Source: Prosthecobacter sp. (GTDB taxonomy: Bacteria; Verrucomicrobiota; Verrucomicrobiia; Verrucomicrobiales; Verrucomicrobiaceae). Taken from it: 39,671 nt of DNA. Within the stretch, counting starts at the first letter, position 1; every line of letters begins with the position of its first letter. The position numbers and the translations under genes were made by a program. Below the pieces are notes generated by a model that ran no database searches, had not been told where the DNA came from, and saw only the letters and a list, made by a program, of their open reading frames with translations. Below are positions 1 through 27,735 of the stretch, in pieces. Location: the NCBI GenBank assembly GCA_035438165.1, contig DAORHS010000001.1, positions 1 to 39,671 of the forward strand. Direction: 5' to 3'.

Positions 1-3000
1 TGGTGAGGGCTTCATCGGGGAAGGTTTTGGTTTGGGTCTGGCCGTTGGTGCCGATGCGGCCGTAGCGGACGGTCATTTCGCAGCCGCTTTGGCCTATCTC
101 CCAGAACTTCTTCGAGCCGGCTTCGATGAACTCGAAGCGCTTCATGCTGGAAGGTGTTGCGGGTGGCGAGCTCGGTCGTGGTGAAGACTCGGGCTCAGGA
201 GCTGGAATGATCTCTGGCGCAGCGGTGGGTTCTTCGATGACTTCTTCCTCTTCGATTTCATTCCGCAGCAGGCGCTCCACGCGCTCAATGACCGCCGCTG
301 GATCATGCCACCAGTCTTTGGCAAGAATCACGAGCACCTGCCAGCCGAAGGCTTTGAGGATGCTCGGCTGGGTGTGGAAGCGTTCCAACACGCCGGTTTG
401 GCCGGTGACATCGAGCAGGAGGCCGACTTGATGCTGCGTGGCTCCTTGGGAGCGCACGGCGACATCGCAGCGGAAGCGGCTCTGGCCGATGTGCGTGTCG
501 GCGTCCCAGCCGCGGGCTTGCAGGGCGGCGGCGATTTGTTTGGCGAGAGCGGCGGAGGTTTGTTCGAGGCTCAAGGCCTGACGTTTGAGTGGATTGAGGC
601 CGTCGAGCACCTGACGAGCGAGAGTGACGTCACCACGCGAGAGGCTTTCGGCGTAGTGGAGGAAATTCTTCAGCGCATTGGCTCCGTCGTTGTAGTCGTT
701 GGTGATGTCGCTGTGACGCAGGCTGCTGAGTAGGACCATGTGCTGGCGGGCACGGCTGAAGATGACATTGAGCCGTTTTTCGCCGCCGCGTTGATTGATG
801 GGGCCGAAGTTCATCAGGATGCGGCCATTCACATCGCGTCCGTAGCAGACGGACATGAGGATGATGTCGCGCTCGTCGCCCTGGATGTTTTCGAGGTTCT
901 TCACGAACAAGCCGCAGAACTGGTCGTCTTCCTCGCGGATGTATTCGGCCTCCAAAAGCGAGGCGAAGGCCGGATCGGTCTCGGCGAGGGAATCGAGTGC
1001 ACTTTCGATCTCGCCTTGCTGAGCCTCGCTGAAGGCGGCGATGCCGATGCTGAGCTTCGTTTCGCTCGAAAGCAGCGTGCGGACGATTTGAGCAATGCTG
1101 GCGGCCTCGCCGGCATTGCGGCGGTTTTCATACGGCATGGCTTCGCAGTGAATGAAACTGATGGGATGGCTCAAAAGCTGCGGAACGAGCGAGGCGGCCT
1201 CTTCGGGTGATTTGATGCGGGTTTCGCTGCTGTCGCGAAGGGCAAGCTGGCGATCCGGGATGGTGTAAAGCTCGCCACCATAGAAGGCGGCGTTGCTGAA
1301 GCTGATGAGCGCCTCGTAGCGACTGCGGTAGTGCCAGGCGAGCAAGGTGCTGGGCAGGTTGCGGGCGCTTTGAGCGAGGAAGCTGTCGGCATCCATGAGC
1401 ACGCTGATTTTTTCGCCCTCCTCTTCGAGCGTGATCTCGTCTTCTTCATCACTGCTGGTGCTGAAGAAACTGGTGGGCGGTAGCTGCATCTCATCGCCAA
1501 CGACGATGACCTGCTGCGCACGATACGCGGCGGGCACGGCCTCCTCGACAGGGATCTGGCTGGCCTCGTCAAAGATGACGACATCAAAGGAAGAGGCATC
1601 CAGCGGCAGCGTGTCGGAGACGGAGAGCGGGCTCATGAGCCAGATGGGCTTCAAATCGCGCACCACCTCACCGCTGTCGCCGGCGGCGAGATCGCGGATA
1701 CTTTTGTAGCGCATCGTTTTGCCAAACTCATGCTCCAGCTCGCGTCGGCCGGTGGTGAAAGTCTTTTTGAAGAGCTTCTGTTCCGGCGTGAGCACGGTGG
1801 CGGATTGATTCGCGAGTTGCACATGCTCCATGAAGCGTTTGCGAGACTGGGAGCGAATCCATCCGGCATTGTGATCGAGCCACTGGCGATGCGATCTGGC
1901 TACGCGGTCGAGTTTTTGCTTCAACACATGCCCGTCGAAGCGCTGCAAGCTGCGGTCGGCGCGATACAGCTCGGCCAGTGATTTCGCAGCGCAGGCGGAC
2001 TCAAGTTGCTCAGCGGTCCAGTCGCGAGTGCGCACGGCGCGGGCGAGTTTTGGCGGAGCGGTGGCGAGATCGCGGAGGGAGGGCAGCAGCTCGGGCAGCG
2101 CGTCCACCTCCTCTAGCATCTCGCGAATGGCGGCGGCGAGGGCAGCGAGGCTGTGGTGCTCCGGTTCATAGAGTGTGCTGCTCAGATCGCGGCGAAGCTG
2201 CGCAAAGCCTGGCGCGAGGGCAGCGAGCATTTCGACGAGAGCCGCTCCTTGCTGGGAGGAGAGCAGTTTTTCGCGAAGGGCGAGCGCGGCAGGCGAGGCA
2301 TCGCTGGCGGAAAGCGTGGCGAGCTGGCTGCGAAGCGTTTCGGGATCGTCGGAGGCAAATTCTTGCTCGCATTGGTCCTTCACGGCTTCCAGTTCGGCAT
2401 TCGCCGCGTGCTCGGCGACGAGTTCAGAGAGCACCTTGGTCCAGGTGGGCTTCACCGCGTGTTTGCTGAAGTCATACGAGGCGTTCAGGACCTTGCGCAG
2501 TCGCCACCAGGCGGGGTTCAGGAAGGAGAGAAAGCCTTGGCGTTTCTCGGCTTGAGCCAAGGCGGAGGCGGTTACGTCGGCAGGCAGCTTATCGCGCCAG
2601 TTCGGGGTCTTCTTTTGCGCGGCGTCGAGAGCTTTGCTCTTCTTGGTGTAATCGGCGCAGAGTTTGGCAAAGGCTCCGCTGGTGCTGCTGTTGGCGTCCA
2701 GCAGGCCAAGGAGATTTTTGCGGGCGAGCGGGAGCAGACGTGTGGTCGAGTCGAGAAGCTGGGCCACCTCATCCAGTGTGTCCCAGTGCTCCATCGGCAG
2801 GCCGGTTTGCTGGAGCGCATCGTCGAGGTCGCTGAGGCGCTGTTCGAGGTCTTCGAGACGTGCGGGAGTGGCTTCGAGGTCATTGAGCCAGCGCAGCGGA
2901 TGTTTGGCGAAAATGGGAGCTGCGCCGAGGTCTTCGAGGGCGTTGGCTAGTCGGAGCACGCTGTCGCCACCTTGCTGCCATTCGGTGTGATCAGGCAATG

Positions 3001-5305
3001 CGTCGTCGAGAGGCGGTTCAGCGGCTTCAAAGCCGTTTCGCAGCTCGATGAGGCGCAACAGCAGCGGATTGGCTGCGGCACTGGATTGGGTGAATTTCTC
3101 CAAAGCAGCCAGTTCGGCCTCCAAAGTGCTCAAAGCGGCATTTCGCTTCGATTCGCTCGCATCGGCGGCGCTGCTCGTGTCGAGCCATTGCTCGTAGGTT
3201 TGCTTCAGATTGAGGATGAACTCCTTCTTATCGGTCTGCGAGTCGTGGATGAGGCAGCACAGCTCATCAAGGCCCTGCTGCCGAAGGCGATGGAAGACGA
3301 CATCAATGGCGGCACGCTTTTCGCAGACAAAGAGCACACGTTTCCCGAGCGCGACATAGTCGGCGATGAGATTCGTGATGGTTTGCGATTTACCAGTGCC
3401 CGGCGGGCCTTGAATGATGAAGCTTTCCCCCGTGCGTGCCCGAGCGATGGCACCAGTCTGTGTGGCGTCCGCCGCGATGATCAGATGCTGCTGCGAGGGT
3501 GGCAAAACGGGGGCCGGCGGTGCCTCGACGGCTTTTGGCTCCAGCGAGAACACGCGGTCAAAGGCGGCATTCGGCAGATCGCTGGCGATGAGCTGCGAGT
3601 AGTCCCGCACGAGCGTCATCTTGCGGTAATTGAAGTTCGCCAGCGTGAGTGAGCAGAGATCAAACTCCCAGGAGTAAGGATTGCCGAGCGAGTCCTCGAC
3701 GATGGAGAAGGTTTTGCGCTCGGTTTCCGCCACCATGTTGAGCTGACGCGGCAGCGGTGGTGCTCCAGCAAGGTCACGCAGCGGCAGCGGTGCGGGCACG
3801 ATCTTCTTTTGGAAGACCTGGAGGCCAAGCGGGCGGAAGTCGGCCTTGTCGTAGCTGTAGTCCACCTTGGCCGCGCTGATGCGGCGGCCACTGCGGGCCA
3901 TGCGACGACGATATTGATCGACGCGCTGCTTGGCCTTTTCGTGAAAGAGCTGAATGCGCGGCTTCTCCGTGAGCGTGAGGCTCACACCGGGCTCGCTGGC
4001 GTGAATCTGCGCCTTCAACTGCTCGTGAAAGGCGGTGAGCGTGGTGCTGCGCAGGTCGATGGTCTCAGGCAGGTCGAGATTGTAGAGCTGCTTCAGGTGG
4101 TGGCGCAGCGCGGGGTTCACCTCGGCTACGGTGTCGCTCGGTTCGAGCGTGTAGTGGTCTTTGACGCCTTTCTTCTTCGTCAGCTCGACCGGCAGAAGCA
4201 GCAACGGCGAGTGAATGCGCTCCTGCGGTGCTTCCTTGAGATTGTGCCAGCGCAGAAAGGTCAGCACGAGACGGAGCTGCGAGAAGCCATACTCCGCGCG
4301 GTCGCGGCGGGCCTCGCTGATAAGCTTGTCGAGCTGCCCCGGCAGATACGGCGCCTCCTCCATGCGCAGCCAGCGGTTCAGCGCGAGCGTGTTCCCTGCG
4401 CTGATGTCCTGCGCGAGTGATTCATGCCAGTAGAGCAGGTCCTCCGGCTTCACATTCCGGTAATCGAGCACGAGCGGCACGCTGGCGATGGTGAGGTTCA
4501 GCGTGGACTGCGTACTCTTGAAGTAGAGCAGCTTGTTGCGCCGCGAGACTTCGAAGAGGCGATCGCGCAGGTGAGTCTGGATGATGGCGCGTTTGTCTTT
4601 CTTGCTGCCTTTTTCCAAGCCTGGCAGCGAGGTGATGTCGATGTCCACCGGCTGATCGCGATACGTCTCCAGCCTGCGGATCAGCGAGGGCAAATCCTGT
4701 GACCGCTTTCCACGATGCAGCTCCGTCATCTCGGTGATGACACTGGCAAGCACGGGATGCAGCCGACGCGAGAGCGCGAAGAGATTCGTGCGCGAGTTGG
4801 CAAACAGCGAGACATCCTCTGCATCCGTAAAATCCAGCCCACAGGCCAAGCTGGCGAGGATAAGACCGAGCGAGAATACGTCGGTGAGTTCGTCGTGATG
4901 ACCGATGACATGTTCCCAGGCCGTGTAGCCCGGCAAATAAACCGGCCGCGTGATTTCGGCGTCTGCACTGCCGACATCGAGGTTCGTGACGTTCTGCGAA
5001 AAGGTGTCGATGTCCGTCTCGCGCTTCGATTCGCCGATGACTTCGAGTCCGCGCGACTGCGTGGCCAGCAACTCACGCAATCGGCTGTCGTTTCGCTCCG
5101 AAGGCACGCCAACAGCCGAAACCAGCCCGAGGGAGCGGTCTTCGATCACCCGAAGGCCAGAAAGACCGCGCAATGGCGCGACATCACCCCTTTCGTGAAT
5201 GGTGAGCACCTCGCGCATCAACGGCAACACGGCGGCAAGCACGTCCTCGGTCTCAAAACCGCCACGGTCGATGCCTTGGTGAAGGAAGGTGGTGAACTCA
5301 CTCAT
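1..5305 (-). CDS. Large multidomain SF1 (UPF1/DNA2-like) helicase: N-terminal kinase-like lobe, DUF4011, AAA_11/AAA_12 helicase, REase-like (MTES_1575/Vsr-like) domain, C-terminal WGR domain; runs off the left edge (>=1768 codons)
   Basis: Not in the ORF track (no stop inside the window). My translation from ATG 5305 (MSEFTTFLHQG...) stays in one frame: LRDRLFEVSRRNKLL (~4570-4526, DUF4011 start), QGPPGTGKSQT (Walker A, GPPGTGKS 3409-3386), FDVVIFDEASQ (~1570), VVGDEMQLPPT, HYRSR, NLENIQGDERD, RLNVIFSRAR, FRCDVAV...GWQVLVILAKDWW, a Pro/Glu linker, then MKRFEFIEAGSKKFWEI...VRYGRIGTNGQTQTKTF (145-1). Confidence 0.9.
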   Translation of the reverse strand, partial: MSEFTTFLHQGIDRGGFETEDVLAAVLPLMREVLTIHERGDVAPLRGLSGLRVIEDRSLGLVSAVGVPSERNDSRLRELLATQSRGLEVIGESKRETDIDTFSQNVTNLDVGSADAEITRPVYLPGYTAWEHVIGHHDELTDVFSLGLILASLACGLDFTDAEDVSLFANSRTNLFALSRRLHPVLASVITEMTELHRGKRSQDLPSLIRRLETYRDQPVDIDITSLPGLEKGSKKDKRAIIQTHLRDRLFEVSRRNKLLYFKSTQSTLNLTIASVPLVLDYRNVKPEDLLYWHESLAQDISAGNTLALNRWLRMEEAPYLPGQLDKLISEARRDRAEYGFSQLRLVLTFLRWHNLKEAPQERIHSPLLLLPVELTKKKGVKDHYTLEPSDTVAEVNPALRHHLKQLYNLDLPETIDLRSTTLTAFHEQLKAQIHASEPGVSLTLTEKPRIQLFHEKAKQRVDQYRRRMARSGRRISAAKVDYSYDKADFRPLGLQVFQKKIVPAPLPLRDLAGAPPLPRQLNMVAETERKTFSIVEDSLGNPYSWEFDLCSLTLANFNYRKMTLVRDYSQLIASDLPNAAFDRVFSLEPKAVEAPPAPVLPPSQQHLIIAADATQTGAIARARTGESFIIQGPPGTGKSQTITNLIADYVALGKRVLFVCEKRAAIDVVFHRLRQQGLDELCCLIHDSQTDKKEFILNLKQTYEQWLDTSSAADASESKRNAALSTLEAELAALEKFTQSSAAANPLLLRLIELRNGFEAAEPPLDDALPDHTEWQQGGDSVLRLANALEDLGAAPIFAKHPLRWLNDLEATPARLEDLEQRLSDLDDALQQTGLPMEHWDTLDEVAQLLDSTTRLLPLARKNLLGLLDANSSTSGAFAKLCADYTKKSKALDAAQKKTPNWRDKLPADVTASALAQAEKRQGFLSFLNPAWWRLRKVLNASYDFSKHAVKPTWTKVLSELVAEHAANAELEAVKDQCEQEFASDDPETLRSQLATLSASDASPAALALREKLLSSQQGAALVEMLAALAPGFAQLRRDLSSTLYEPEHHSLAALAAAIREMLEEVDALPELLPSLRDLATAPPKLARAVRTRDWTAEQLESACAAKSLAELYRADRSLQRFDGHVLKQKLDRVARSHRQWLDHNAGWIRSQSRKRFMEHVQLANQSATVLTPEQKLFKKTFTTGRRELEHEFGKTMRYKSIRDLAAGDSGEVVRDLKPIWLMSPLSVSDTLPLDASSFDVVIFDEASQIPVEEAVPAAYRAQQVIVVGDEMQLPPTSFFSTSSDEEDEITLEEEGEKISVLMDADSFLAQSARNLPSTLLAWHYRSRYEALISFSNAAFYGGELYTIPDRQLALRDSSETRIKSPEEAASLVPQLLSHPISFIHCEAMPYENRRNAGEAASIAQIVRTLLSSETKLSIGIAAFSEAQQGEIESALDSLAETDPAFASLLEAEYIREEDDQFCGLFVKNLENIQGDERDIILMSVCYGRDVNGRILMNFGPINQRGGEKRLNVIFSRARQHMVLLSSLRHSDITNDYNDGANALKNFLHYAESLSRGDVTLARQVLDGLNPLKRQALSLEQTSAALAKQIAAALQARGWDADTHIGQSRFRCDVAVRSQGATQHQVGLLLDVTGQTGVLERFHTQPSILKAFGWQVLVILAKDWWHDPAAVIERVERLLRNEIEEEEVIEEPTAAPEIIPAPEPESSPRPSSPPATPSSMKRFEFIEAGSKKFWEIGQSGCEMTVRYGRIGTNGQTQTKTFPDEALT

Positions 5306-6459
5306 ACCAGCACCTCCTTGAGCTTTTTGAGGTCTTTGGCTTTCATCTTCAGCTCTTTGGTGAGCAGTTTTTCAAAGGCACCGAGGCATTCCAGATCGCG
5401 GGCGAACTCGAGACATCGTGAGATCGGCGGGTCATCGAGATCGGGATCGACGGCGCAGAAGTCGAGCATGAGCTGCGCGAAGTATTCGCGGTGCGAGGTG
5501 GGGCGCTCGGCAAGCTCGGCGATGATGCTGGCATCGGCTGTGGGTTGGAACTCGCGGAAGAAGAGCCGCGCATGAGCCAGAACGGCATCGGTTTGGAACC
5601 AAGAGGGTTCCAGCAGGTGCGCGAGGAAACGACGAGTGAGCGCGGCCATTTCCGACTGTTGCACGAGCGTGAGGTCATCAAGCCCTTCATCGAAATCGAG
5701 CATCTTAGCGATGGTTTCTTCAAGTGATTCGTCCTCTTCGACCCAAAGCTGAAGCGCACGCGCCCGGATGAAGGTCTCGGGATGGGTGAGTTGATCGGTC
5801 TTTGGCTTCGATTTGGAGAAAATCTCCTCTGCTTGAGCGAGGTAGCTTTTGGCGCTCACCTGAGCAAGCCCGGTGGTCGTTTTGACGAGTCCTGCAACGG
5901 CGGTTTCAAGACTGTTCGTCGCCAAGAAGGCTCCACGATCCGCAAACAACTCGGTGGCAAGCCGCCACACGCGCGCACTTTGAGCATGAGCAGGCTCCGC
6001 ACCGGGATGCGAAGCCGCCGAGTGCAGAATGCGGTCCGCCAGATAAAAGGTGCCATCCTCCATCTGCCAGAGGTGATGATGCGCCAGCTCATGCCCGATC
6101 ACTCCGCGCAACTCATCGGTCGAAAGCAGCGAAAGGATTGGCCCCGAGAAAATGACATGCGCCTCGCCTGGAAGGTGGCAGACCGCCGCGTTTGGCGTGG
6201 TGGCGTCCTGCGCCTGATAGGCAAAGACTTGTGCCTGAATCCCAAGCGCCGCACAGGCGGCCGCGATCTCCCGAAAAACCTCTGGATGGGCCTCTGCATC
6301 AAGACGGTAAGTGTCCCGTAGCAGCGACAGTCGAACCTGCTCGGCATCCGTCTCCGTTTTCTCCTTTTCCTCAAACCACCGCCAGACTTCCTTTTCCTCC
6401 CGGCACAGCCATTCGGCAAGGGTGCGGTGTTGGGGGAGAGGGGGGAGGGCCTTTGACAT
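5302..6459 (-). CDS. Soluble M48-family (HtpX/Ste24-like) zinc metallopeptidase with helical C-terminal extension
   Basis: PNAA, ELRGVIGHELAH (HExxH at 6093-6079), ELFADR third ligand and THP..R motifs; no hydrophobic TM stretch; stop TGA overlaps the helicase ATG (ATGA, 5302-5305). ATG 6459 preferred over the track start 6468. Confidence 0.85.
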   Translation of the reverse strand: MSKALPPLPQHRTLAEWLCREEKEVWRWFEEKEKTETDAEQVRLSLLRDTYRLDAEAHPEVFREIAAACAALGIQAQVFAYQAQDATTPNAAVCHLPGEAHVIFSGPILSLLSTDELRGVIGHELAHHHLWQMEDGTFYLADRILHSAASHPGAEPAHAQSARVWRLATELFADRGAFLATNSLETAVAGLVKTTTGLAQVSAKSYLAQAEEIFSKSKPKTDQLTHPETFIRARALQLWVEEDESLEETIAKMLDFDEGLDDLTLVQQSEMAALTRRFLAHLLEPSWFQTDAVLAHARLFFREFQPTADASIIAELAERPTSHREYFAQLMLDFCAVDPDLDDPPISRCLEFARDLECLGAFEKLLTKELKMKAKDLKKLKEVLV

Positions 6460-6554
6460 CAGGGGCAATCAAGCGGGAAGCCCGGAGTCCGTCAATGTCT
6501 CGCCAAGGAATATCACGAAAGAGGCATGTTTCTTTCTCGTTCGCCATTCATCAC

Positions 6555-7817
6555 ATGAGCACCTTCACCTTTCAAAAACACCTCTCCCGCCGCGCCATGC
6601 TGCGCGGGGCGGGCATCACGCTGGGACTTCCTTTGCTGGAGGCGATGACTCCCGCGCTGGCCGCCGTCAAAGAATCGAAACAGGCGAAGCGCTTTGTCGG
6701 GGTGAGCATGTCGCTCGGCCTGCACAATCCGAATCTCGTTCCCGAGGGCGCTGGACGTGACTACAAGCCCTCGCGCTATCTGAAGAGCATCCAGGATCTG
6801 CGGAACGACTTCACTGTCGTGTCCGGCTCCTCGCATCCCGGCGTTACAGGCGGTCACACGGCGGAAGGCAGCATCTATTCGGCCTGTCCGAACGCCCGCG
6901 GTGCCACTTCGCGCAACACGATCTCGCTCGACCAGCTCATGGCGAAGCAATTGGGGCATGAAACGCGCTTTCCGTCCCTCGTGTTGAACACGAATTCACA
7001 GACGAGTCCGAGCTATACCGAGAACGGCTCGATGATTCCCGCCGAAAACAGCGCCATGCGCCTGTTCACGCGCCTGTTCGTCAACGACAACCCCGCCGAG
7101 CAGAAACGACAGGCGGAACTCATCCGCAGCGGGCGCAGCGTGATGGACATCGTCGGGGCGGAGGCAAAATCACTTCAACGCGAACTCGGGGCGGGCGACC
7201 GCGACAAACTCGACGCGTGGTTCACCAGCGTGCGCGATCTCGAGCAGCGTCTCGCCTTGAACGAAGCCTGGACGCACAAGCCGAAGCCGAAAGTCAGCCT
7301 ACAGCCGCCGACCAAAATCCCGCGTGACAACGAAGTCGCCGTGGACGGCATCTTTCTCGACATCATCCACATGGCGCTGGCCACCGACAGCACGCGCTTC
7401 GTCACGCTGCACATCACGGGCAATTCCGTGCAGGGCATCGAAGGAGTGGACGAGAGCTACCACAGTCTCAGCCATCACGGCATGGACGAGGAAAAGCTCG
7501 CGCAGCTTGCCATCGTCGAGCAGGGCGTCATCAACCAGTGGGGCGATTTCCTCCGCAAGCTGAAGACCGACAAACTGCTCGATGAAACGATGGTGCTGCT
7601 CACCTCAAACCTCGGCAACGCCTCCGCGCACGACAACAAGAACATGCCCGTCCTCTTCGCCGGCGGCGGCTTCAAACACGGCCAGCACCTCGCCTTCGAC
7701 CAGAAGAACAACTACCCGCTGCCCAATCTCTACCTCGGCGCCCTGCAGCGTCTCGGACTGGAAGAAGACAAGTTTGCGACCAGCACCGGCACGATGAGCG
7801 GGCTGGAAACGGCCTGA
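6555..7817 (+). CDS. DUF1552 family protein (Tat-like signal)
   Basis: MSTFTFQKHLSRRAMLRGAGITLGLPLLEAM N-terminus, ISLDQ, YHSLSHH, GGGFKHGQH and NLY motifs; start at ATG 6555 rather than the track start 6192, which would overlap the M48 gene. Confidence 0.88.
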   Translation: MSTFTFQKHLSRRAMLRGAGITLGLPLLEAMTPALAAVKESKQAKRFVGVSMSLGLHNPNLVPEGAGRDYKPSRYLKSIQDLRNDFTVVSGSSHPGVTGGHTAEGSIYSACPNARGATSRNTISLDQLMAKQLGHETRFPSLVLNTNSQTSPSYTENGSMIPAENSAMRLFTRLFVNDNPAEQKRQAELIRSGRSVMDIVGAEAKSLQRELGAGDRDKLDAWFTSVRDLEQRLALNEAWTHKPKPKVSLQPPTKIPRDNEVAVDGIFLDIIHMALATDSTRFVTLHITGNSVQGIEGVDESYHSLSHHGMDEEKLAQLAIVEQGVINQWGDFLRKLKTDKLLDETMVLLTSNLGNASAHDNKNMPVLFAGGGFKHGQHLAFDQKNNYPLPNLYLGALQRLGLEEDKFATSTGTMSGLETA

Positions 7818-7866
7818 TTGATTCGCCGGTCAGATTTCACGGGTCAGGTCCGTTGAATGCCCGCTC

Positions 7867-10251
7867 ATGAAGCATCTTTGGCTCCTCCTCCTTTGCTCCC
7901 CGGCTGCTTTCGCCGCCCTGCCTGCCATCCAGCCGTTCCTGGATCAGAACTGCATGGACTGCCACGACGCGGAGATGAAAAAGGGCGGGCTCGATCTCGC
8001 GGCGCTCTCCACGGATGGCGCCGACGCGGCGGCTTTGAAGAAATGGGTGCGCGTGTTTGACCGCGTGGCGGCAGGCGAAATGCCGCCGCCGAAGAAGAAA
8101 CAGCAGCCTTCGGTGGATGCTATGCAGGATTTCATGGCGGCGCTGGGAGGCGACCTCGTGAAAAAGTACAACGCGCAGAAAGGCACCGTGCTGCGCAGGC
8201 TGAACCGCCAGGAGTATCAGAACACGATCAATGATCTCCTCGGCGTGAAGGTGAGTGTGATCGACTCGCTGCCCGAGGACGGGCGGGCGCAAGGCTTCGA
8301 CAACATCGGCGAAGCGCTCTCGATCTCCGGCATTCAGATGCTGCGCTACATGCAGGCGGCCGAACTGGCGCTCAATGCCGCGTTGTTTGCCGACCAGTGG
8401 CCTGAAAAGACCGCCGAACGCGCCACGCTCGAAAGCGACCGCAACAAGGACAACATCGGCAAGCACTGGCTGAAGCGCGATGACGGAGCCATCGTCGTCT
8501 TCAACAACGGCGGCTTTCCCAGCACGGTGATCCCGAACCTGCGGGCGAAGGCCTCCGGCACCTACAAGCTGCGTGTCACCGGCTACGGTTATCAGATCGA
8601 GGAGCCGGTCGTGTTTGCCCTCATCACCGGCAGCTTCAACTTCCGCAACGCGGACAACGTGACGCACAGCTATCACGAGTTGCCTGTTGGCAAACCCGGC
8701 ACCGTCGAGGTCACGCTGCACCTCGATCAAGGCAAAGGCATCTGGATCAGCGCCCAGGGTCTCAACGGTCCGGACGGTCATTCTCCGGTCAAGGACGGCC
8801 CCGCCAACTATCCCGGCGAAGGCCTCGCGCTGATGTCCGTCGAGCTGGAAGGCCCGTTCATCACCGAATGGCCTCCGCGCGGGCAGACGATGCTGCTCGG
8901 CGATGCGAGGCTGCGCGAGGTGATGCCGGACAAGCCATGGATGCGCGGCAAATACGGCTACAAGCCCGTCTTCACCGCCGACAGCGCCGACCCGGTCGGC
9001 GACTCGCGCAAACTGCTTCCCGCTTTCGTCACCGCCGCGTTCCGTCGCCCCGTCACGACGACGGATGTCGAGCCCTTTGTGAAGCTGTTTGATGCCGAGT
9101 TTGCCGAAGGGAGGGATTTCCTCGTCGCCATGCGCACCGCGGCCATCGCCGTGCTTTGCTCGCCGGAGTTTCTTTTTTTGAAGGAGCCTGCGGGCAGGCT
9201 GAACGATCACCAGCTCGCCACGCGCCTCAGCTATTTCCTCACCCGCAGCGCTCCGGACGCCGAACTGCTCGCCGCGAAACTCACGCAGCCCGAAGTCCTT
9301 CGCACGCAAACCGAACGCCTGCTCAAAAGCGCCACGTTGGATCGCTTCGTCACCGACTTCACCGACGGCTGGCTCAACCTGCGCGAGATCGAGTTCACCA
9401 CGCCCGACAAGCAGCTTTACCCCGAATACGACGGCCTGCTGCTCGACTCCATGCTGCGTGAGACACGTGGGTTCATCACCGAACTCTTTCGGAGCAACCT
9501 CGGTGTTGCAAACATCGTTCACAGCGACTTCGCCATGCTCAACTCTCGCATGGCGCGGCACTACGGCATTCCCGGCATCAGCGGATTGGATCTGCGCAAG
9601 GTCAAGCTGCCGCCCGACAGCCATCGCGGCGGGGTGCTGACTCAGGCGAGCGTGATGAAAGTCAGCGCGAACGGCACGAACACCTCGCCCGTCGTGCGTG
9701 GCATCTTCGTCATGGACCGCATTCTCGGCATGGAGCCGCCTCCTCCGCCGCCCGGTGTTCCAGGGGTGGAACCGGACATCCGCGGCGCCAACACGCTGCG
9801 CGAGCTGCTCGACAAACACCGCGACATGGAAAGCTGCAACGGCTGCCATCGCGTGATCGATCCGCCCGGCTTCGCGTTGGAGAGCTACGACGTCATCGGC
9901 GGCTGGCGCGACCGCTTCCGCAGCATCGACAAGGGGGATCAGGTCAATCTGAAGATCGAAGGCCGTCGCGTGCGCTACCGCCTCGGCCCGCCCGTCGATG
10001 CCGCAGGCGAGCTGCCGGATGGCGCTAAGTTCGCGAACCTTGCAGACTTTCAAAAGCTCCTCCTCGCCGACGAGGACCGCGTGACTCGCAGCATCACCGA
10101 AAAACTCCTCACCTTCGCCGCCGGCCGGGCCATGGGGTTCTCGGACCGCGCCGAAATCGCCCGCCTCGTCGCCGCATCCAAGGCCAAAGGCCACGGCATG
10201 CGCGATCTGATTCACGCCGTCGTTCAGAGCGAGGTTTTCCGGAGCAAATAG
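7867..10251 (+). CDS. Planctomycete-type cytochrome c protein with DUF1587/DUF1595/DUF1592/DUF1588/DUF1585 domains
   Basis: Signal peptide; two CxxCH (CMDCH, CNGCH); MPP; LRRLNRQEYQNTINDL; AFRRP; LATRLSYFL; TSPVVRG; IDPPGFALESYD. Confidence 0.88.
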   Translation: MKHLWLLLLCSPAAFAALPAIQPFLDQNCMDCHDAEMKKGGLDLAALSTDGADAAALKKWVRVFDRVAAGEMPPPKKKQQPSVDAMQDFMAALGGDLVKKYNAQKGTVLRRLNRQEYQNTINDLLGVKVSVIDSLPEDGRAQGFDNIGEALSISGIQMLRYMQAAELALNAALFADQWPEKTAERATLESDRNKDNIGKHWLKRDDGAIVVFNNGGFPSTVIPNLRAKASGTYKLRVTGYGYQIEEPVVFALITGSFNFRNADNVTHSYHELPVGKPGTVEVTLHLDQGKGIWISAQGLNGPDGHSPVKDGPANYPGEGLALMSVELEGPFITEWPPRGQTMLLGDARLREVMPDKPWMRGKYGYKPVFTADSADPVGDSRKLLPAFVTAAFRRPVTTTDVEPFVKLFDAEFAEGRDFLVAMRTAAIAVLCSPEFLFLKEPAGRLNDHQLATRLSYFLTRSAPDAELLAAKLTQPEVLRTQTERLLKSATLDRFVTDFTDGWLNLREIEFTTPDKQLYPEYDGLLLDSMLRETRGFITELFRSNLGVANIVHSDFAMLNSRMARHYGIPGISGLDLRKVKLPPDSHRGGVLTQASVMKVSANGTNTSPVVRGIFVMDRILGMEPPPPPPGVPGVEPDIRGANTLRELLDKHRDMESCNGCHRVIDPPGFALESYDVIGGWRDRFRSIDKGDQVNLKIEGRRVRYRLGPPVDAAGELPDGAKFANLADFQKLLLADEDRVTRSITEKLLTFAAGRAMGFSDRAEIARLVAASKAKGHGMRDLIHAVVQSEVFRSK

Positions 10252-15821: not shown

Positions 15822-18800
15822 ATGAAACAAAAACTCCTCCAGCCATCCCGAGGATTCCCATCACGGAACATGATGATGCCCGCAGCTCGTTTGCAGTCCA
15901 CGAATTCGCCTTCCCTTTCGTCCGTGTGCCTGCTTTTGCTGGCCCTGTTCACGGGAATCTTCTCCGCTCAAACACGTGCTGCCACGTTCTACTGGGACGC
16001 TGACGCCGATGCCACGGGGAATCTCGTGGACGGCACCAACCTCGGCGGCACAGGCACCTGGGACACCATCACCGCCAACTGGTGGGACGGGGTTTCCACC
16101 GATGCTGCCTGGCCGAATTCGCTGCTCGACACGGCTGTCTTCTCCGGCACCGCCGGCACGGTGACCTTGGGAGGACCGATCAATGTGGGGGCGCTCGTTT
16201 TCAACAGCGACGGCTATCTCCTCACCGGCGGCACCCTGACACTGGGCGGCGCGGCCACGATGGATGTGAGCGGTTTGAACGATGTGCGGATCGATTCCGA
16301 CATTGCTGGCAGCCTGGGGCTGATCAAAATCGGGAACGGCACGTTGAATCTCGGCTCGGCCAACAGCTACACGGGCGATACCACGATCAACGCCGGGATC
16401 GTCGAGGTGTACAAGGATGAGAGTCTCGGCACGGGCGGCGGCGACATCATTCTCGACGGAGGGACGCTGCGGGCGTTGGGAAACAATTTCTACTCGACAC
16501 GGAACATCACCATCGGCGCGGGCGGCGGCACGCTGGATGTGACGCGCAACAACTCCACCTTCGGCTCCATGCGTCTGAAAGGGGAGATCAGTGGTGCAGG
16601 CACGTTGACGAAGACCGGATTCGGCGAACTGCGGCTGGATGGCGACAGCTCTGCCTTCACCGGAGATTTCATCGTGGACAGCGGCATCGTGCGTATGCAG
16701 GCCTACACGGACCGGGGAACGGTGGCGAACATCCCCTCTCTGAGCGGAGCCTCCAGTTACACCGTCCGCTCAGGAGGCGATTTGATCTTGTCGTATAGCG
16801 CGATCGGCTCGACGCCCTATTACTCCATCGTCAACGAGACGGCTCCCGTGCACATGGAGGGCGGCCGCCTCCAGTTCTACTCGAACAACAGCGGCGCGGT
16901 CAGTCCCTGGACACAGACGATGGGTGACTTGTTTCTGGACCGCGGATCCTCGCGTTTTTTCATCAGCCGCACCAGCAGCAGTTCGGCGACGCTGTGGTCT
17001 TTTGGTGATCTCAACCGCTCGGTCGGTGCGACGGCCGACTTCGACTGGACGACCAGCGCCGGCACACTGGGCGCTCCGGGCAACAATCCGCGCATCCTGT
17101 TCAACAGCATCCCTGACCCGGTCAATGACGGCATCCTGGGCGGCTGGGCGCTGGTGAACCAGATCGACTTCGCCAACTACGACGCCACCCATGGCGTGGC
17201 CATCGCCAATTACACTTCCACGGACATCACCACCGCCGGTGCCACGGACAATGTGGACTTCAGCCAGGGGGCGGTGACCACCACGATCGGCGACACCACG
17301 GTCAATGCCCTCAAATGGACGGCCACGGCCGGCGTCACCACGGGTACGCCCACGACCATCATCGAGCAGACGGACGGCAGCACGCTGACCATCGACACCG
17401 GCGGTCTGCTGACCATCGGCAACTTCTACACCTCCATCCAGCCCGAGAGCGGCGGCAGCGCCACCATCAAAGCCAATGGCGGTGCGTTGTATGTTCACAA
17501 CGCGCAGTCCAACTTGTACATCTATTCCACGATTGCAGACGGGGACATGCCCACGGCCCTGGTGAAGACGCAGGCCGGCAGTCTGGTCATATACAGCACC
17601 ACGGACAACACCTACTCGGGAGGCACTTACATCAACGGAGCTGCAAACGTCTATACCGGCTTCACCAACAACCAGACCTACCTGGGCACGGGTCCTGTTT
17701 ACGTGACGCGGGGCATCTTGAACCTGCGGCGAATGGGCGCCACGACTTCGACCGAAGGCTACTCTGTTTTTGAAGGCGGCAGCATCTATCTCGACAGTTC
17801 AACGACGGCCTTTAACACCACAGGGGACCGGTTCACGGTTGATGGAAGCAGCAGCCTTGGCGGACAGTCCGCATCGGCGGGTGGGGGTGGTCTCAACAGT
17901 CTGACCTACGTCGCCGGAGCCGTCAGCGCAGGCGGCGAGGCGCATCTTGAGCCTGGTGCGACCATCCTTCATGGCACCAATTCATCCGCCATGGGCACGG
18001 GCAACAACACCATGCAGGGGTTGCCCAATGACATGCAGTTCTACTTTGGCGATGCGACCACCCAGACAGCCGCCTCAGGCGTCACCATTGGTGTCGGCAC
18101 CCCCTGGAAAGGCATCGGCAATGACCGCAACACCCGCGCCTGGGATCTGGGCACCATCACGGTCAATGGCAGCGACTTCGAACTGCACGCCATGCTGGTC
18201 CCCAATCAAAACGGCGAAGGTCAGAGCGCCTACACGCTGAGATTGGGCAATGGCACTGGCACCGGTGGTCCTGTGATCACCGGAGCCGCCGCCACTCCGC
18301 TCACCGCGCATGTGACAGGCGGTTACGTGGGGCTTGATGATGGCTCCGCGACCTACGGGAGCATCGCGGCCGGCAGCCCGCTGACGTTCATGGTGGAGCC
18401 GGGCGGAACGCTGGAGGTTTCCCAATCCGCTGCAATGGGGTCTGGCGACGGCCTGGCGAGCATCATCGTTCTCGATGGCGGCACCTTGCAGCAGTATGGC
18501 AGTACGGACGCGGCCCGGCTGGCGGCCGCCGAGACCGGGTTCAACGGCGATGTGACGGTTCAATCACGCGGCCGCTTCCTGGCGCAGAACACCAATGGCT
18601 TGTCTGGCAGCGGCCAGCTCACGTTTGAAGCCCGCTCCATCATTCAGATCAACAACAACACCGGCTGGACGGGAGCGCAGGCGCTGGCCGCCATCGGCGT
18701 GAACGACGCCATCGTGAAGATCAACGTGGACAACTTCGGCACGGCGGCACAACCGCTGCTCACGACCTACTTTGACGGCACCGGCATCTATGAGTGGTCC

Positions 18801-21800
18801 GCCAGTGCAAATGCGGCGAACCCCACCTCGGCGGGCACGCCGATTGTCTCTCTCGACGGCGCACCCGGCTCGGGTCACGGCCTCATCATCAACGACGCGT
18901 TTGACCGGAGTCTGGATGCGACCAGCAGAGGTTTCATCGAGCTGAAGGCCGGTGGCGCGGGCGGCACCATTGCGTCCTCCAGCGGGCATCTCTTCAACAT
19001 CAATGAGGATGTGGAGCTCAACGGCCTGATCCTGACCATCGGCTATGCGGATGTGATCGATGGCGATCCCGGTCTCGGTGACGTGCGCATGGACAAGGTC
19101 ACCGACGGTGTCGGCGGCGGCAGCATCAACGTGATCGACGGCGCCCAGTTGCGCATCAGTGCCGCCAATGCCTTCGACGACACCATCTTCATCACCCTCG
19201 AGGCCGGCGCCTGGCTGGATGTGGACGAAGGCGACACCATTCTGCGTGTGACGGGCGGCGGTGCCACCAGCCGCATCCTCGGTGACAACACACTGACGGT
19301 CACACAGGCGGGCGATTACAACCTCGGTGCCAGCATTTGCGACACGGCCAACATCCTGCAGACAGGCGGTGGTGTTCTGACCCTTGACCAGGACTCGGAC
19401 GGCGGCGGCAACCTCGCGGTCAGCAGCGGCACGATCAAGATCGGCACGGGGGTCAATATCGGAAGCACCTTCAATCTGAACCCGACGAGCGGGGGCGTGA
19501 TCGATCTCAATGGCACGACAAATGCGGTGCGTTCCATCACCGGCGACTCGACAGGAACGATCGAGCTCAACGGCGGTGTTCTCGTGTTCGCCAACTCGGG
19601 CACCGTGACGATCGATTCGGGGGAGGCGGTGATCAACGGTCCTGGCACCATCCGCCTGATTGGAGAAGGCCAGGTGCGCTTCAACGCGGACCCGACGCGA
19701 ATGACCAACATCAGCCAGATCGATGTTTTCAACGGAGAGTTTCGCGTGGACGGCGTGGCCGGCACGCCCAACAGCTTCCTCATCGACGTGCCCGTCATCA
19801 ATCTGGGCGACGGCTTTGTGACGACGGGAGGAACGGGATTCCAGGTGTTCCCGCGCCTCTATCTGGTCAACACAGAGACCACCCAGACGGCGGAGCTCAA
19901 TGTCAACGGCGGCTGGATCACCAGCGACCTTGGAAACAGCGACCTCACGATCTGGAGTGGGAACATCAACTTCACCGGCACGGGCAACACCAATCTTTTC
20001 GATGTGAACGACGCCGGGACGGGTGATCAACACGTTGTCACAGGTGTCATTGGCGGCACGGGCGGCTTCAGCAAGATCAACACAGGCACCCTCCGCCTGG
20101 AGGCCAATAACACAATCTCCGGCGACATCTACATCCAGCGCAACGGTGTGGGTGGCTCGAACATTGACTCCACCGTCTCCCGCGGCGGCATCCGCCTGAC
20201 CGAGGCTGCTGGGGCTCTCTCCGCCGCCAATTCCATCGTGATCAGCCGTGATGGCAGCCTTTATCTCAACAACGCCACGGATGTGAATCTCAACCGTGTT
20301 AATGACGCCGCCGACCTCATCCTCCGTGGCCAGGGTCGCATTCGACTGGTGGGCAACGCGGGATCAGCGGTCACGGAAACCATGGGCGACCTCATCGTTG
20401 AGTCTGGCTCCGGCAAGATCAATTTCGACCTCGACGACACCACACCGCAGACCACGAGTTTCACCTTTGCCAGCTTCACGCGTGATCCGGGGTCCATCGC
20501 GCAGTTTCAGGTGCTCGACAACGTTCCGGGCTCGTTTGGGACCACGGCTCACTTGTTCATCACTGATGGCGGCGCCAGCGCGACGCTGTATGGCGGCGGA
20601 ACGGGCAATGGCACGACGACCCAGTCCATCGTGCTGGGGGCGTTCGGCGGCGTGAACAACATCTCCAACCACTTCATGACCTTCGACAGCGTGACTCCCA
20701 CGGAATTGCGACCGTTGGATTTCGACACGGAGTATCTTCAAAGCTCCAGCCTGCCGGTCAAAGGCCTCGTGGACGGCGACTACACCGTCCTCTATGGCGT
20801 GAACCAGAATTTCATGCTCAACTACAACGTGGACCGCGCGGGCGATCCCGACGGCGACGTGAACTGGTATGGCGACAATCCCAACCGCATCACGGTCAAC
20901 GTGGCAATGAACTCGCTCCGCTTTGGCACCAATACGCCGACTTCTGTGGTCAACGGCAGCAATACCAACGAACTCGGCTCGGTACTGGTGCTCAACGCCG
21001 ACGTCACCCTCTATCTGGGGGACTCCCTGGGTGCGAGCAATGGGGTTGGTTTTGACACCAACGGTTCGGGCATGCTCCTTTTCGGACGGGATGTCAGCGG
21101 AACCAGCGCGGGCAGCAATCAATACATCGCTGGCGGGGTGATCGATTTCGGCACACGTGAGGCCATCATCGTCAATGAAAGCGGCAACAGCGCTCTCATT
21201 CGTTCTGAGATTTCCGGCAGCGGCGGATTGACGAAGGCCGGGGCGCAGACCTTGTACTTCGACAACAGCAACAGCTACACCGGCGTCACCACCATCGCGG
21301 AAGGCATTCTCGTGATTCGTGATCAGCATGCCCTGGGTGGCTCCGACCTGGTGAGAATCGAAAACGACGGACGGCTTTACCTGGAACTCGGCACCAATGT
21401 GCTCGATTCCGTTTCTGGAGGTGCTCCGCCGAATCTCTACATCGGCATCAACAGTGTTTCGACCACCGTTCTCCACAGCAACAACGCCAACAACACCTGG
21501 GGTGGCGACATCATTGTCGATACCGTGGACGATGCCGGTAACTGGGTCTTCACCCCCTACCTTGGCACCGGCTCGCTTTATACCCTGAACATCGACGGGG
21601 ACATCTACGGCAATGAGGAAGGCGGACCTGGAGGGATTGCCGCCAATCATATCAGCCGGGACACCGCTCTGAACGACGCACGCCTTCTCTCCACCGCCGG
21701 CGTCAGCTCGTCGGGCGGCGTCATCAACCTCAACGGTCAGTTCCACGACAATCAGTTCGGCGCCATTGCCACACCGGTCACCGCCGATAACGAAAACCAG

Positions 21801-24800
21801 CTCCTGCGTTTCTTCATTCGCGGCAGCGACCAGACGGTGGTCAACGCACGCCAGCAGTGGGACGCGGCGGGTCTCATCTTTGTGGAAAACGGCATCCTGC
21901 GCTACGAGGGCGACGGCAATTTCTGGACCCCGCTGGCGGCGGCCAACCTCAATGCCGCCAACGGGCAGAGCGGCCTGCGCATCGGCGGCAACAGCAACAA
22001 CTGGAACGCGGCGGTCATCCTGACCAAGCCCGGCCAGGTTCTCAACATCAGCCGCATCGACATCGGCGGGGACGGCACGTCCGATTACAACCAGTTCGGC
22101 AACGACATGCTCGCCGGCACGAACACCTCCGGTACGGTGACCTTTGGTGATGGTACGGACCGGATCGTTTACAACGGATCGAGTGCCGCCAACAACTTTG
22201 TCCGTGACCTGACCGTGTACCAGGCCGGAGGCGGCACGATGGAATTGAATTTCCGCCTGGACGACACGGACGCGGACTCCCACACCTCCTTCACCAAGAT
22301 CGGCCGTGGCGTCGTTAACTTCAACGGCCAGAACGATGTGAATGGCGCCGCGCAGAACGGTGACGTGGAGCAGCTCAACATGTCTGGCGGCCTGCTGCGT
22401 CTGACCAACTACGGCAATGCCACGGGGCGTCGCTTCGACACCGGGGCCATGATCACCTTCGCCGGTGGCGGCATCGAAATGGATGGTGCCAGCTCCATTC
22501 AAAATGAGACGGCCAATTACACAGGGGCGGCCGTCGGAGGGGCTTCCAATTTCCCCACCGCGCAGACGCTGGTCGCCGCCGGCGGCACCGATGTGATCGT
22601 CACGTCGAAGGAAGGTCGCACTACCACCATGAACATCGGCTCCCTCACGCTGGCGACGAATCGTCTGTCCGGCGGCACCTTGAACTTCGTGGAGAATGGC
22701 AATGGCGGCAATTCGGTCATCACCTTCCTGGGCAGCGGCGGTGGCAGCATTCAGGCGGATGACACCGCCTACGCCTGGGCCACCTACGGTGACAGCTACA
22801 CCTACAATGCCGCAGCGGCGACCTACACGCTCAATGCGCTCGACTTTGCCATGACCACCGGCGGAGCCGGAGACATCACGCAATTTGCGGGGGGCACTCG
22901 TCAGGATGAGGACGACATCACCTTGTGGACCGCGACGATGGATGTCAGTGAGAATGGGAGCGGCTTCAACGGCGGCCTGGCAGCATCGCCCATCAACACT
23001 CTCCACTTCGACTTTGATGGGGCGGGCATCATTGACGCCACCAACGGCCTCGAGGTGACCAGCGGCGGCATCATGGTCAGTTCCACGGTTCTCACGGGTG
23101 CCAAGTCCATCATCAACGGCACGCTGATGGCGGGCGCGGATGCCGACCTGATCATCCACCAGTATGGCGGTGTGGCGATGACGATTGGTTCGATCATCGC
23201 CGACAACGGCGGTAGTGTGGCAGGGAATGCGCTGGTCAAAACCGGATCCGGTGAACTCATCCTGTCCGGCACCAACACCTACACCGGCAGGACCTTCCTC
23301 AATGGCGGCGCGCTGACCATTTCCAGTGACGCGAATCTGGGCACTGCCCCCGGCGGGGTTTTGGTGGACGCCCTTTACATCAACAGCGGCAATTTGAACA
23401 CGACGGCGGACTTCACGCTCGATGCCAACCGTGGCATCACGCTCGGCGGCAACGGCGGGGAGCTGAACGTCGCCGCCGGAACCACCCTGAGTTATGGCGG
23501 CATCATTGCATCCGAGCCGAATGTGATCGTCAACTACTCGGCCAATCCGGCGGTGGGCCGCATCGACAAGACGGGAGATGGGACGCTGTACCTCACCGGC
23601 ACCAACAACACCTACAACGGCCTGACCGAAATCAAGGCGGGCACCCTGAAATGGGAGCCCACCTTTACAGGCAGCACAACCGCGACGCCGTTTGGATCAA
23701 ACAGCGCCTTCCTGGACGGCACCATCCTTCGCAGCGGAGCGACGCTGGTGCTCGCCCCCCAGACCCCCGCCACCAACTCCAACTACAACGCGATCCTGCA
23801 GGAGTGGTTCACCTTTGAAGGCGGCAGCATGCTGGATCTCGCTCCGGTGAACACCACGGGGGATTCGCATGACATTAACTATTACTTCCGTGGCATTCTA
23901 CAGTTTAACAGTCTCGGCAACGCCGGGACGCCCGATGGTGTGCAAACCGCCGGCACGCTGGCGGGTGCGACGGTCCTCAATGTGGGAAGCCAGGGCACCA
24001 CCAACCTCAATGATGCCGGCGGCTACATCACGGGCGACGGCGGCATCACCAAGATCGGGCCCGGCACCCTCTATTTTCGCGAGAGCAATCCGGAATGGAC
24101 CGGGCAGTTGATCGTCAGCGAAGGTTCGGTGCATCTCTTCAGCGCGGGAAATCCAGCAGGCATTGGTACGATGCCGATCATTCTCGGACACAATCTGGCT
24201 GCGGAAACGGCGGGAGAGGCCGTCTCCGGCACCGGCACGGTGCAGCTCCTCTACCGTGACGAGGGCGGCTACCGGGATGTGTCCAATGTCAGCCAGGACA
24301 TCATTGTGCGCGATGACTCCGGGGCGGGAAATCAGACGAAGCGCATCGGGGCCATCTATATGGCTCACGCCGACGTGGTGAACTACAAAGGTACGCTCAC
24401 GCTTCAGGACGACGTGGAGTTCTACTATCAGGATGACGTCCGCGACAGCAACAGCACAACCTCCTCGAACACCCGAAATGACACCCGCTCCATCGGCGCG
24501 CCGACCAATGCCGAAACCGTGTTCATCAATTTCGACGGCGACATCATCGGCGGCGGCAACATCTCCATCAACGTGCCCCAGGGGGGCAGTGGCAACGTCG
24601 CCAACGGCAGCATCACCGATCCGTTCGATGACTTTGTGATCAACGCCATCTTCGGCCTGAACGGCGACAACAGCGCCTGGACCGGCGATCTGCTGATCAC
24701 TAATAACAGCGCCACGACCGGCGGCGACGACGTGGACCGCATCGCCATCGTGCGTCTGGGCAATGCCCTGGCGCTGAATGACAACCTGGTGAAGTTCGCC

Positions 24801-27599: not shown

Positions 27600-27735
27600 T
27601 CCGCATTCATCGCTGTGCGGCCTTTCGCGGGGAAGGGGGATGGTCGGTTGTCGGATCGTGCCGGCGGCTTGTCATGTTTTGTCCTTCGGTGATTCCACTG
27701 GTGAAATCGGGCCGCCTGCGCCGTTCTTAGTGGTG

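What the first reader, a model, noticed from the sequence alone, without database searches (positions are those of the whole stretch)
1..6459. Candidate two-gene defence system: soluble M48 protease coupled to a kinase-like/DUF4011/SF1 helicase/REase/WGR giant
Seen: a >=1768-codon ORF that the ORF track missed, sharing an ATGA overlap with an upstream TM-less HExxH peptidase. Established: a single-gene DUF4011-helicase-Vsr-like architecture (Hhe) is anti-phage; kinase-helicase fusions occur in Mokosh; WGR domains bind nucleic acid/DNA breaks in PARPs. Inference: this is an Hhe-like effector with two extra sensing modules and a dedicated protease partner, which may activate it or release a domain by cleavage. 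I know of no described system with this combination.
Basis: partly seen in the sequence, partly recalled or inferred. Interest (0 to 1): 0.85.

Follow-up and report, generated by a model that had tools for sequence, protein, structure and literature searches.

The report
Protease-paired helicase with eroded nuclease
Two overlapping genes, a soluble zinc protease and a giant helicase related to known anti-phage proteins, stay together in scattered bacteria, and because the helicase's nuclease site has lost a key residue, the helicase likely senses nucleic acid while the protease likely does the damage.

Summary
A 385-aa M48 zinc peptidase overlaps (ATGA) a 1,788-aa DUF4011/SF1-helicase/REase/WGR gene.

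The pair is tightly conserved. The giant follows the peptidase in 79 of 80 genome loci, and peptidase sequence precedes the giant in 78 of 80 metagenome loci. It also occurs in Planctomycetota and on 14 Ralstonia megaplasmids. It is patchy (8 of 105 genomes in the genus).

The closest named family is Prometheus (ProA), not Hhe, and the giant fails both curated cut-offs.
- The 'kinase' is only a C-lobe, with no N-lobe or catalytic motifs.
- The nuclease glutamate is kept in none of the 173 aligned members, while helicase motifs are 98-100% conserved.
- True ProA proteins carry a fused Cys-His peptidase-like domain where this clade has the half-kinase, and this clade has a separate metallopeptidase instead.

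Best reading: the helicase senses nucleic acid and the protease acts, probably against phage. Defence-island signal is modest (retron XIII module in 14 of 161 loci). Binding, cleavage and protection are untested.

Verdict: new variant of a known kind; interest 0.62.

The parts
5302..6459 (-). Soluble M48-like zinc metallopeptidase gene, 385 aa from the ATG at 6459 (the ORF finder starts at TTG 6468)
   Evidence: Pfam M48 8e-9; database form P0003 is 385 aa; AF2 pLDDT 95.6, best fold matches 3c37 Z 10.1, ZMPSTE24 Z 9.8, BepA Z 8.8
6079..6093 (-). HExxH zinc motif (H123, E124, H127)
   Evidence: Invariant in 114 aligned homologs; HExxH plus ExxAD-type motif in 152 of 152 full-length peptidase ORFs from 160 loci
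5938..5952 (-). ExxAD motif (E170, predicted third zinc ligand; D174)
   Evidence: D174 invariant, E170 at least 90%; role inferred from the M48 family
5344..5682 (-). C-terminal helical domain of the peptidase (260-372), predicted TerB-like fold
   Evidence: VIA-align 2ou3 Z 7.3 (111 aligned, rmsd 3.6) and 2h5n Z 7.0; sequence test against two TerB proteins not significant; tentative
5302..5305 (-). ATGA stop/start overlap
   Evidence: Sequence; same 4-bp overlap in Ralstonia; gap of 40 nt or less in 138 of 156 loci
2..5305 (-). Giant DUF4011 / SF1 helicase / REase-fold / WGR gene (1768 of about 1788 codons lie in the window)
4649..5305 (-). Protein-kinase C-lobe only (1-219): no N-lobe, no HRD Asp, no DFG; predicted docking module
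   Evidence: VIA-align Z 14.0 to PknB residues 92-282, Z 13.9 to 97-286; Foldseek kinases; alignment of 63
4982..5044 (-). Predicted beta-hairpin (88-108) lying roughly where the activation segment would be; candidate protease bait
   Evidence: AF2 strands 88-98 and 103-108, pLDDT about 65-68; role is inference
4094..4561 (-). DUF4011 domain (249-404), divergent
   Evidence: Pfam 6.5e-16, against 1e-41 to 1e-47 in six canonical ProA-like proteins
3386..3409 (-). Helicase Walker A (633-640)
   Evidence: 100% conserved in 173 full-length members
1556..1570 (-). Helicase Walker B / motif II (1246-1250), after a large insertion of about 500 residues
   Evidence: 100% conserved in 173 members
722..1360 (-). 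Second helicase domain (AAA_12, 1316-1528) with the later SF1 motifs
272..541 (-). MTES_1575 REase fold (1589-1678) with an eroded active site: D1614 kept, canonical Glu replaced by L1630, RDRD motif replaced
   Evidence: Column 1630 is L92/M4/V1% in 173 members; canonical ProA-like proteins keep GIExDG
2..136 (-). C-terminal WGR domain (cut by the contig edge)
   Evidence: Pfam 1.2e-9; motif in 161 of 173 members

Best explanation
This is a conserved two-gene unit of the Prometheus/Hhe helicase family that likely defends against phage, with the giant helicase as the predicted nucleic-acid sensor and the zinc peptidase as the likely acting enzyme. Shown: the genes are coupled; the helicase and peptidase motifs are intact; the nuclease glutamate is lost; the N-terminus is half a kinase with no catalytic motifs. 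Inferred: the helicase, the eroded REase fold and the WGR domain would bind exposed or broken nucleic acid during infection. ATP-driven movement would then switch on the peptidase, which is likely held on the kinase C-lobe. The peptidase would cut a host or phage protein and stop the infection. The separately encoded metallopeptidase would stand in for the Cys-His peptidase-like domain that is fused at the same place in canonical ProA.
For: Coupling: 79 of 80 peptidase loci have the giant downstream. 78 of 80 half-kinase loci have peptidase sequence upstream; the two misses have 102 and 4 bp of upstream DNA, and one of the 78 has only a peptidase fragment. 14 of 14 plasmid hits have both genes, as do 4 of 4 further Planctomycetota hits. 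Specificity: in one draw of 301 genomes, 50 have DUF4011, 4 have the half-kinase and 3 of those 4 have the full-length peptidase; none of the other 46 has either. Peptidase motifs are intact in 152 of 152 and helicase motifs are 98-100% conserved, but the REase Glu is absent from the column's listed residues (L92/M4/V1%) in 173 members and in Ralstonia. In Hhe, E1731A abolishes defence (bioRxiv 2022.06.16.496414, passages); PADLOC model coordinates place L1630 near model position 1727-1730. 11 of 12 canonical relatives pass the ProA cut-off, and 10 of 10 aligned ones keep Cys and His in an N-terminal TCLD..GHA domain (Transglut_core 0.0017 in 1 of 6). ProA is described as an experimentally validated single-protein defence (PMC13700489 section 13). 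Distribution is patchy: 8 of 105 genomes in the genus. A retron XIII module lies just downstream in 14 of 161 loci, in at least 3 places on the tree.
Against: No experiment exists. Most neighbours are ordinary metabolic or envelope genes, and the window has no defence neighbour among the ORFs scanned. The REase keeps two acidic positions (D1614 94%; 1632 D86/E12%) and a His in many members, so it may still cut. The E1731 mapping is approximate, because no true Hhe sequence was obtained. Canonical ProA has both a peptidase-like domain and an intact nuclease, which would fit a processing role for the peptidase rather than a killing role. Orphans exist: peptidase alone (L074) and giant alone (G306/L209, L170). 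No target of the peptidase is known.
Confidence: 0.42

Rival explanations
1. One reading: the peptidase cuts the giant (for example at the 88-108 hairpin), releasing it from self-inhibition, and the helicase with a still-active but atypical nuclease is the anti-phage effector.
For: An exposed, lower-confidence beta-hairpin sits on the half-kinase. The half-kinase is found almost only with the peptidase. Two acidic REase positions are kept. ProA combines a peptidase-like domain with an intact nuclease.
Against: The canonical REase Glu and the RDRD motif are lost across the clade; the first Asp is Pro in three Opitutales-branch members and the His is lost in the window's branch. The hairpin sequence is only moderately conserved.
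Confidence: 0.22
2. A repair module rather than a defence: a nucleic-acid-activated protease plus helicase that clears proteins stuck or crosslinked to DNA or RNA, working like SprT/Wss1 proteases (comparison recalled).
For: 72 of 114 peptidases also match Pfam SprT-like at E <= 0.1. The WGR domain is present in 161 of 173. Most loci lie outside defence islands. Occasional neighbours are uvrA (Ralstonia), an mfd-like gene, and Tpt1, PNKP and HAD RNA-repair genes.
Against: The fold is closest to M48 proteins. Presence is very patchy. The named relatives are anti-phage. Canonical ProA loci in the same phylum also have few defence neighbours (3 of 20). The repair neighbours are scattered single cases.
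Confidence: 0.2
3. Toxin-antitoxin logic: the peptidase keeps a toxic giant in check, and loss of the peptidase during infection unleashes it.
For: The peptidase is upstream and translationally coupled, the usual antitoxin position (recalled).
Against: Intact giant ORFs exist with no peptidase found (G306, 1885-codon frame) or with only a fragment (L170, 1781-codon frame).
Confidence: 0.08

Closest known systems
Prometheus ProA (NCBIfam NF058533; single-protein anti-phage system)
   Same: DUF4011, split SF1 helicase with a large insertion, and MTES_1575 REase fold in the same order; best curated match (5e-202)
   Different: 674 bits against a cut-off of 1500. Half-kinase instead of the N-terminal Cys-His domain; WGR instead of DUF3320; REase Glu lost; dedicated upstream M48 gene; separate branch on the helicase tree (SH-aLRT 100, quick tree)
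Hhe (NCBIfam NF042953; PADLOC PDLC02194)
   Same: DUF4011-helicase-Vsr-like layout; PADLOC 3e-88
   Different: 431 bits against a cut-off of 2000. Hhe is a single gene and needs a nuclease Glu (E1731), which appears to be the residue lost here
PADLOC candidate PDC-S37
   Same: Best PADLOC profile, 3e-201 over residues 531-1699
   Different: The match does not cover the half-kinase or WGR; the peptidase has no PADLOC match
Peptidase family M48 (Ste24/ZMPSTE24, BepA, HtpX)
   Same: HExxH, ExxAD and HP motifs; fold Z 8.7-10.1
   Different: No membrane helix; extra C-terminal TerB-like helical domain; encoded with a helicase
Mokosh type I (MkoA kinase-helicase with MkoB; composition recalled)
   Same: Kinase-fold module joined to an SF1 helicase; PADLOC MkoA 4e-37
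   Different: The best-scoring stretch is the helicase half (1236-1559); the kinase here is a C-lobe only; no PLD nuclease partner among recurrent neighbours

Membership tests
Prometheus ProA | NCBIfam NF058533 score of at least 1500 | tested here: not met
   674 bits; four more clade members 654-707; 11 of 12 canonical controls pass
Prometheus ProA | DUF4011 + SF1 helicase with insertion + MTES_1575 fold | tested here: met
Prometheus ProA | C-terminal DUF3320 | tested here: not met
   WGR instead; PMC13700489 notes Asgard variants that also lack it
Prometheus ProA | Single-protein system | tested here: not met
   Peptidase adjacent in 78 of 80 loci
Prometheus ProA | N-terminal Cys-His (TCLD..GHA) domain seen in canonical homologs (my observation, not taken from a paper) | tested here: not met
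   10 of 10 canonical; replaced here by a kinase C-lobe
Prometheus ProA / Hhe | Intact REase motif GIExDG | tested here: not met
   Glu position is L92/M4/V1% in 173 members; alignment with canonical proteins
Prometheus ProA / Hhe | Protection against phage | not testable with these tools
   Needs a phage challenge
Hhe | NCBIfam NF042953 score of at least 2000 | tested here: not met
   431 bits
PDC-S37 | PADLOC profile match under the system's own rule | tested here: inconclusive
   E 3e-201, model positions 203-1356 of 1550; no cut-off is given by the tool
Peptidase M48 | Pfam PF01435 above gathering score, HExxH plus downstream Glu | tested here: met
   35.9 against 20.3 bits; 114 of 114 members match at E <= 0.1; motifs
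Peptidase M48 | Zinc-dependent proteolysis | not testable with these tools
   Needs an assay
Hanks-type protein kinase | C-lobe fold | tested here: met
   Z 14.0, 154 aligned, rmsd 3.1 to PknB
Hanks-type protein kinase | N-lobe (Gly loop, Lys), HRD Asp, DFG | tested here: not met
   Residue 1 aligns at PknB 92-97; no conserved Asp after H37 and no DFG in 63 sequences
TerB fold (peptidase C-terminus) | Structural and sequence match to TerB | tested here: inconclusive
   Z 7.3 and 7.0, below the tool's mark for helical domains; TerB not among the 25 Pfam families listed; profile test E 0.05-0.3 on two TerB sequences
Mokosh type I | Active kinase-helicase plus PLD nuclease partner (recalled) | tested here: not met
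   Half-kinase only; partner is a peptidase; no other conserved third gene

The most novel reading that the evidence does not exclude
An effector swap inside the Prometheus family. The nuclease has been retired, and a nucleic-acid-sensing helicase now triggers a separate zinc protease through a docking module made from half a kinase. Every working DUF4011 helicase may need a peptidase (a fused cysteine type in ProA, a zinc type in trans here), so proteolysis rather than nucleic-acid cutting would be the family's shared step.
Probability: 0.35. Interest if true: 0.82.

Novelty: new variant of a known kind. Interest (0 to 1): 0.62.

Why it matters
The mechanism of Prometheus/Hhe-type helicases is poorly known. 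This clade splits the functions into two genes and erodes the nuclease, so it lets one test directly whether proteolysis or nucleic-acid cutting is the family's output. It also points to a peptidase-like domain in ProA itself, and gives a natural example of an isolated kinase C-lobe kept as a module. Current annotation would call the giant alone (PDC-S37-like, below the ProA cut-off) and miss the partner, so a single-gene phage test could give a false negative.

Tried and rejected
- Complex prediction of the peptidase with giant residues 1-240: no verdict (score 0.00 in two runs). It is not used for or against binding.
- Peptidase fusions: none among proteins of 675-2000 aa. This is weak, since a full fusion would be longer.
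- Viral contigs: no half-kinase relative. Phage records: one unannotated hit to the helicase half.
- Expression: no RNA holder listed. No promoter or terminator consensus in 6300-6700.
- Active kinase: rejected. Membrane protease: rejected.
- Conserved third gene: none; the most frequent neighbour cluster covers 14 of 163 loci.
- A true Hhe sequence to verify E1731: not obtained.
- The ProA N-terminal domain had no PDB sequence match; its transglutaminase-like call rests on the Cys-His pattern and one sub-threshold Pfam hit.
- One search was meant to sample another phylum but returned two of the same Verrucomicrobiota genomes, so it is not counted.
- Atlas clusters of the peptidase are commonest in Bacteroidota and Pseudomonadota; pairing was not tested in Bacteroidota.
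- Paper searches for this combination found no description. The original Prometheus, Hhe and Ter-system papers were not retrieved and no supplements were read, so a mention there cannot be excluded.
Full report
Observation. The window is the start of contig C1 of an 83%-complete genome; close relatives are labelled Prosthecobacter or Verrucomicrobiaceae. Two minus-strand ORFs are present as described: a peptidase at 6459..5302 (385 aa) and a giant from 5305 to the contig edge. They share ATGA at 5302-5305. The giant has DUF4011, a split SF1 helicase, an MTES_1575 REase fold and WGR. It ends about 20 residues past the window: contig C248 overlaps by 244 bp at 96.7% and closes the frame, and the matching database protein is 1788 aa.

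Are the genes a unit? Yes. A scan of GTDB genomes found 329 relatives of the peptidase; of the best 80 returned, 79 have the giant downstream on the same strand. The reverse scan with the giant's first 240 residues found 250 metagenome relatives; of the best 80, 78 have peptidase sequence upstream, one of them only a fragment, and the two misses lack upstream DNA. The gap is 40 nt or less in 138 of 156 loci. These sets are the closest hits and are mostly Verrucomicrobiota, so they are not independent. The pair also occurs in 4 of 250 further Planctomycetota genomes, all paired, and in 14 of 14 Ralstonia megaplasmid hits, with the same 4-bp overlap in the one inspected. As a control, in one draw of 301 genomes of the phylum, 50 have a DUF4011 protein, 4 have the N-terminal domain and 3 have the full-length peptidase, those 3 being among the 4. 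The peptidase therefore tracks this sub-family, not DUF4011 helicases in general. Exceptions: a lone peptidase (L074), a lone giant (G306) and a giant with a peptidase fragment (L170). Presence is patchy: 8 of 105 genomes in the genus.

The peptidase. It has HExxH, ExxAD and HP motifs, intact in 152 of 152 full-length copies for the first two, and no membrane helix. The model (pLDDT 95.6) matches M48 proteins best (Z 10.1, 9.8, 8.8); Foldseek gave the same families without significance. Residues 260-372 match two structures at Z 7.3 and 7.0, one a tellurite-resistance protein and one that I recall as TerB-like. A sequence test was not significant, so the TerB call is tentative.

The N-terminal domain. 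Residues 1-219 fold as a protein-kinase C-lobe: Z 14.0 to PknB 92-282, with residue 1 aligned at the hinge. There is no N-lobe, no conserved catalytic Asp and no DFG in 63 sequences. It cannot be an ordinary kinase. Kinase C-lobes dock substrates (established knowledge), so a docking role is inferred. A beta-hairpin at 88-108 is a possible protease bait (inference).

Helicase and nuclease. In 173 full-length members the core helicase motif residues are 98-100% conserved. The REase is not. Canonical relatives read GIExDG..RDRD (15 of 19 matched the pattern). The clade has a hydrophobic residue at the Glu position (L92/M4/V1%) and replaces RDRD; the first Asp is kept in 94% and the second acidic position in 98%. 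The Ralstonia copy shows the same pattern. A preprint reports that E1731A abolishes Hhe defence (10.1101/2022.06.16.496414, passages). PADLOC coordinates put position 1630 near Hhe model position 1727-1730. This is consistent but unverified, as I could not obtain that protein. I put nuclease inactivity at about 65%.

What canonical ProA has instead. Eleven of 12 ordinary DUF4011 giants from the phylum pass the ProA cut-off, while clade members score 654-707. Ten of 10 aligned ones carry an N-terminal domain with invariant Cys and His; one of six hits Transglut_core below threshold. So ProA appears to carry a cysteine-peptidase-like domain where this clade has the half-kinase, and this clade has a zinc peptidase in trans. 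On a quick tree of the helicase core the 64 clade rows and 12 ProA rows are separated with SH-aLRT 100; it has only a midpoint root and no Hhe row.

Neighbourhood. A crude gene caller gave 838 genes in 380 clusters; I scanned the nearest 298 of 378 neighbour clusters against PADLOC and 130 proteins against Pfam. Most are ordinary. Specific defence neighbours are a retron type XIII module and DRT8. The helical gene of the retron module lies in 14 of 161 loci and the SWIM gene in 11 of them; the RT is adjacent in 5 of 5 tested; the type is defined in PMC7736814 (passages). DRT8 is near L161 and a HipA-like gene near L033. The retron label needs 3-4 changes on the tree. Only 60 of 160 loci are 15 kb or longer. 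In the control, 3 of 20 canonical loci had a defence neighbour among 132 of 173 called genes (different caller). Island enrichment is thus modest for both, and neither proves nor refutes defence.

Mechanism. Best reading (0.42): the giant senses nucleic acid and the peptidase acts. Rivals: the peptidase activates the giant by cleavage (0.22); repair of protein-nucleic-acid adducts (0.20); antitoxin (0.08). Defence of some form totals about 0.7. The coupling, the intact helicase and peptidase motifs, the half-kinase and the eroded REase are shown. Binding, trigger, target and protection are inferred.

Literature and novelty. Prometheus is described as a validated single-protein system with DUF4011 and DUF3320, with variants including a split form (PMC13700489; section 13 read whole; passages). 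A DUF4011 gene beside a radical SAM gene bounds a Pseudomonas defence hotspot (10.1101/2022.11.11.516204, passages). An M48 gene occurs in an unrelated defence island (PMC12255303, passages). PMC11232893 only lists Hhe (passage). No search found this pair, but the primary Prometheus and Hhe papers were not retrieved and no supplements were read. Its mention of fused forms was not confirmed. Verdict: a real, unnamed two-gene variant of the Prometheus/Hhe kind; interest 0.62.

Noticed in passing
L229-L240 (canonical ProA-like proteins, about residues 190-350): An N-terminal domain with invariant Cys and His (TCLD..GHA), transglutaminase-like, in 10 of 10 aligned; one other homolog (L235) has Ser at the Cys position.
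   Followed up: partly
L017:1808-2611, L020:7185-7988: A Kinase-PolyVal (PF18762) gene is inserted between the peptidase and the giant, abutting both; another small kinase follows the giant in L035:17228-17716.
   Followed up: partly
L019:5216-5785: A TIGR02996-domain gene lies between the two genes.
   Followed up: no
L019, L031, L035, L057, L066 and nine more loci, downstream of the giant: A retron type XIII module follows the operon, directly abutting it in L066 and L019; its helical protein had no WGR match, while the giant ends in one.
   Followed up: partly
L241:21886-27723: In Ralstonia the operon faces a 1945-aa uvrA gene, among copper-uptake and molybdopterin genes.
   Followed up: no
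L092:3-1715, L160:1-1170: DUF4132-type genes lie directly upstream of the peptidase in two loci.
   Followed up: no
L057, L071, L091, L007/L072: NrtR/NUDIX, Tpt1 (KptA), Band-7 and PNKP-like genes recur near a few loci, suggesting RNA-repair or NAD-salvage clusters.
   Followed up: no
L030, L033, L036, L045, L071, upstream of the peptidase: A 210-aa gene with conserved His/Asp motifs (HD-hydrolase-like by eye) and no significant Pfam match.
   Followed up: no
L034, L049, L052, L068, L091, L023: The giant is broken into several frames in these assemblies; sequencing error or decay was not told apart.
   Followed up: no
L133, L144, L151 and others, between the two genes: Gaps of 100-500 bp hold no convincing gene and look like dispersed repeats.
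   Followed up: partly
window 15822-27599 (+): A 3925-aa ORF with passenger-associated transport repeats (autotransporter-like) in its first 1393 residues.
   Followed up: no
window 6555-10251 and 27511-32713: Typical PVC-group DUF1552/DUF1592 and DUF1553/DUF1501 gene pairs; the DUF1552 gene also flanks the operon in L015, L018, L021 and L022.
   Followed up: no
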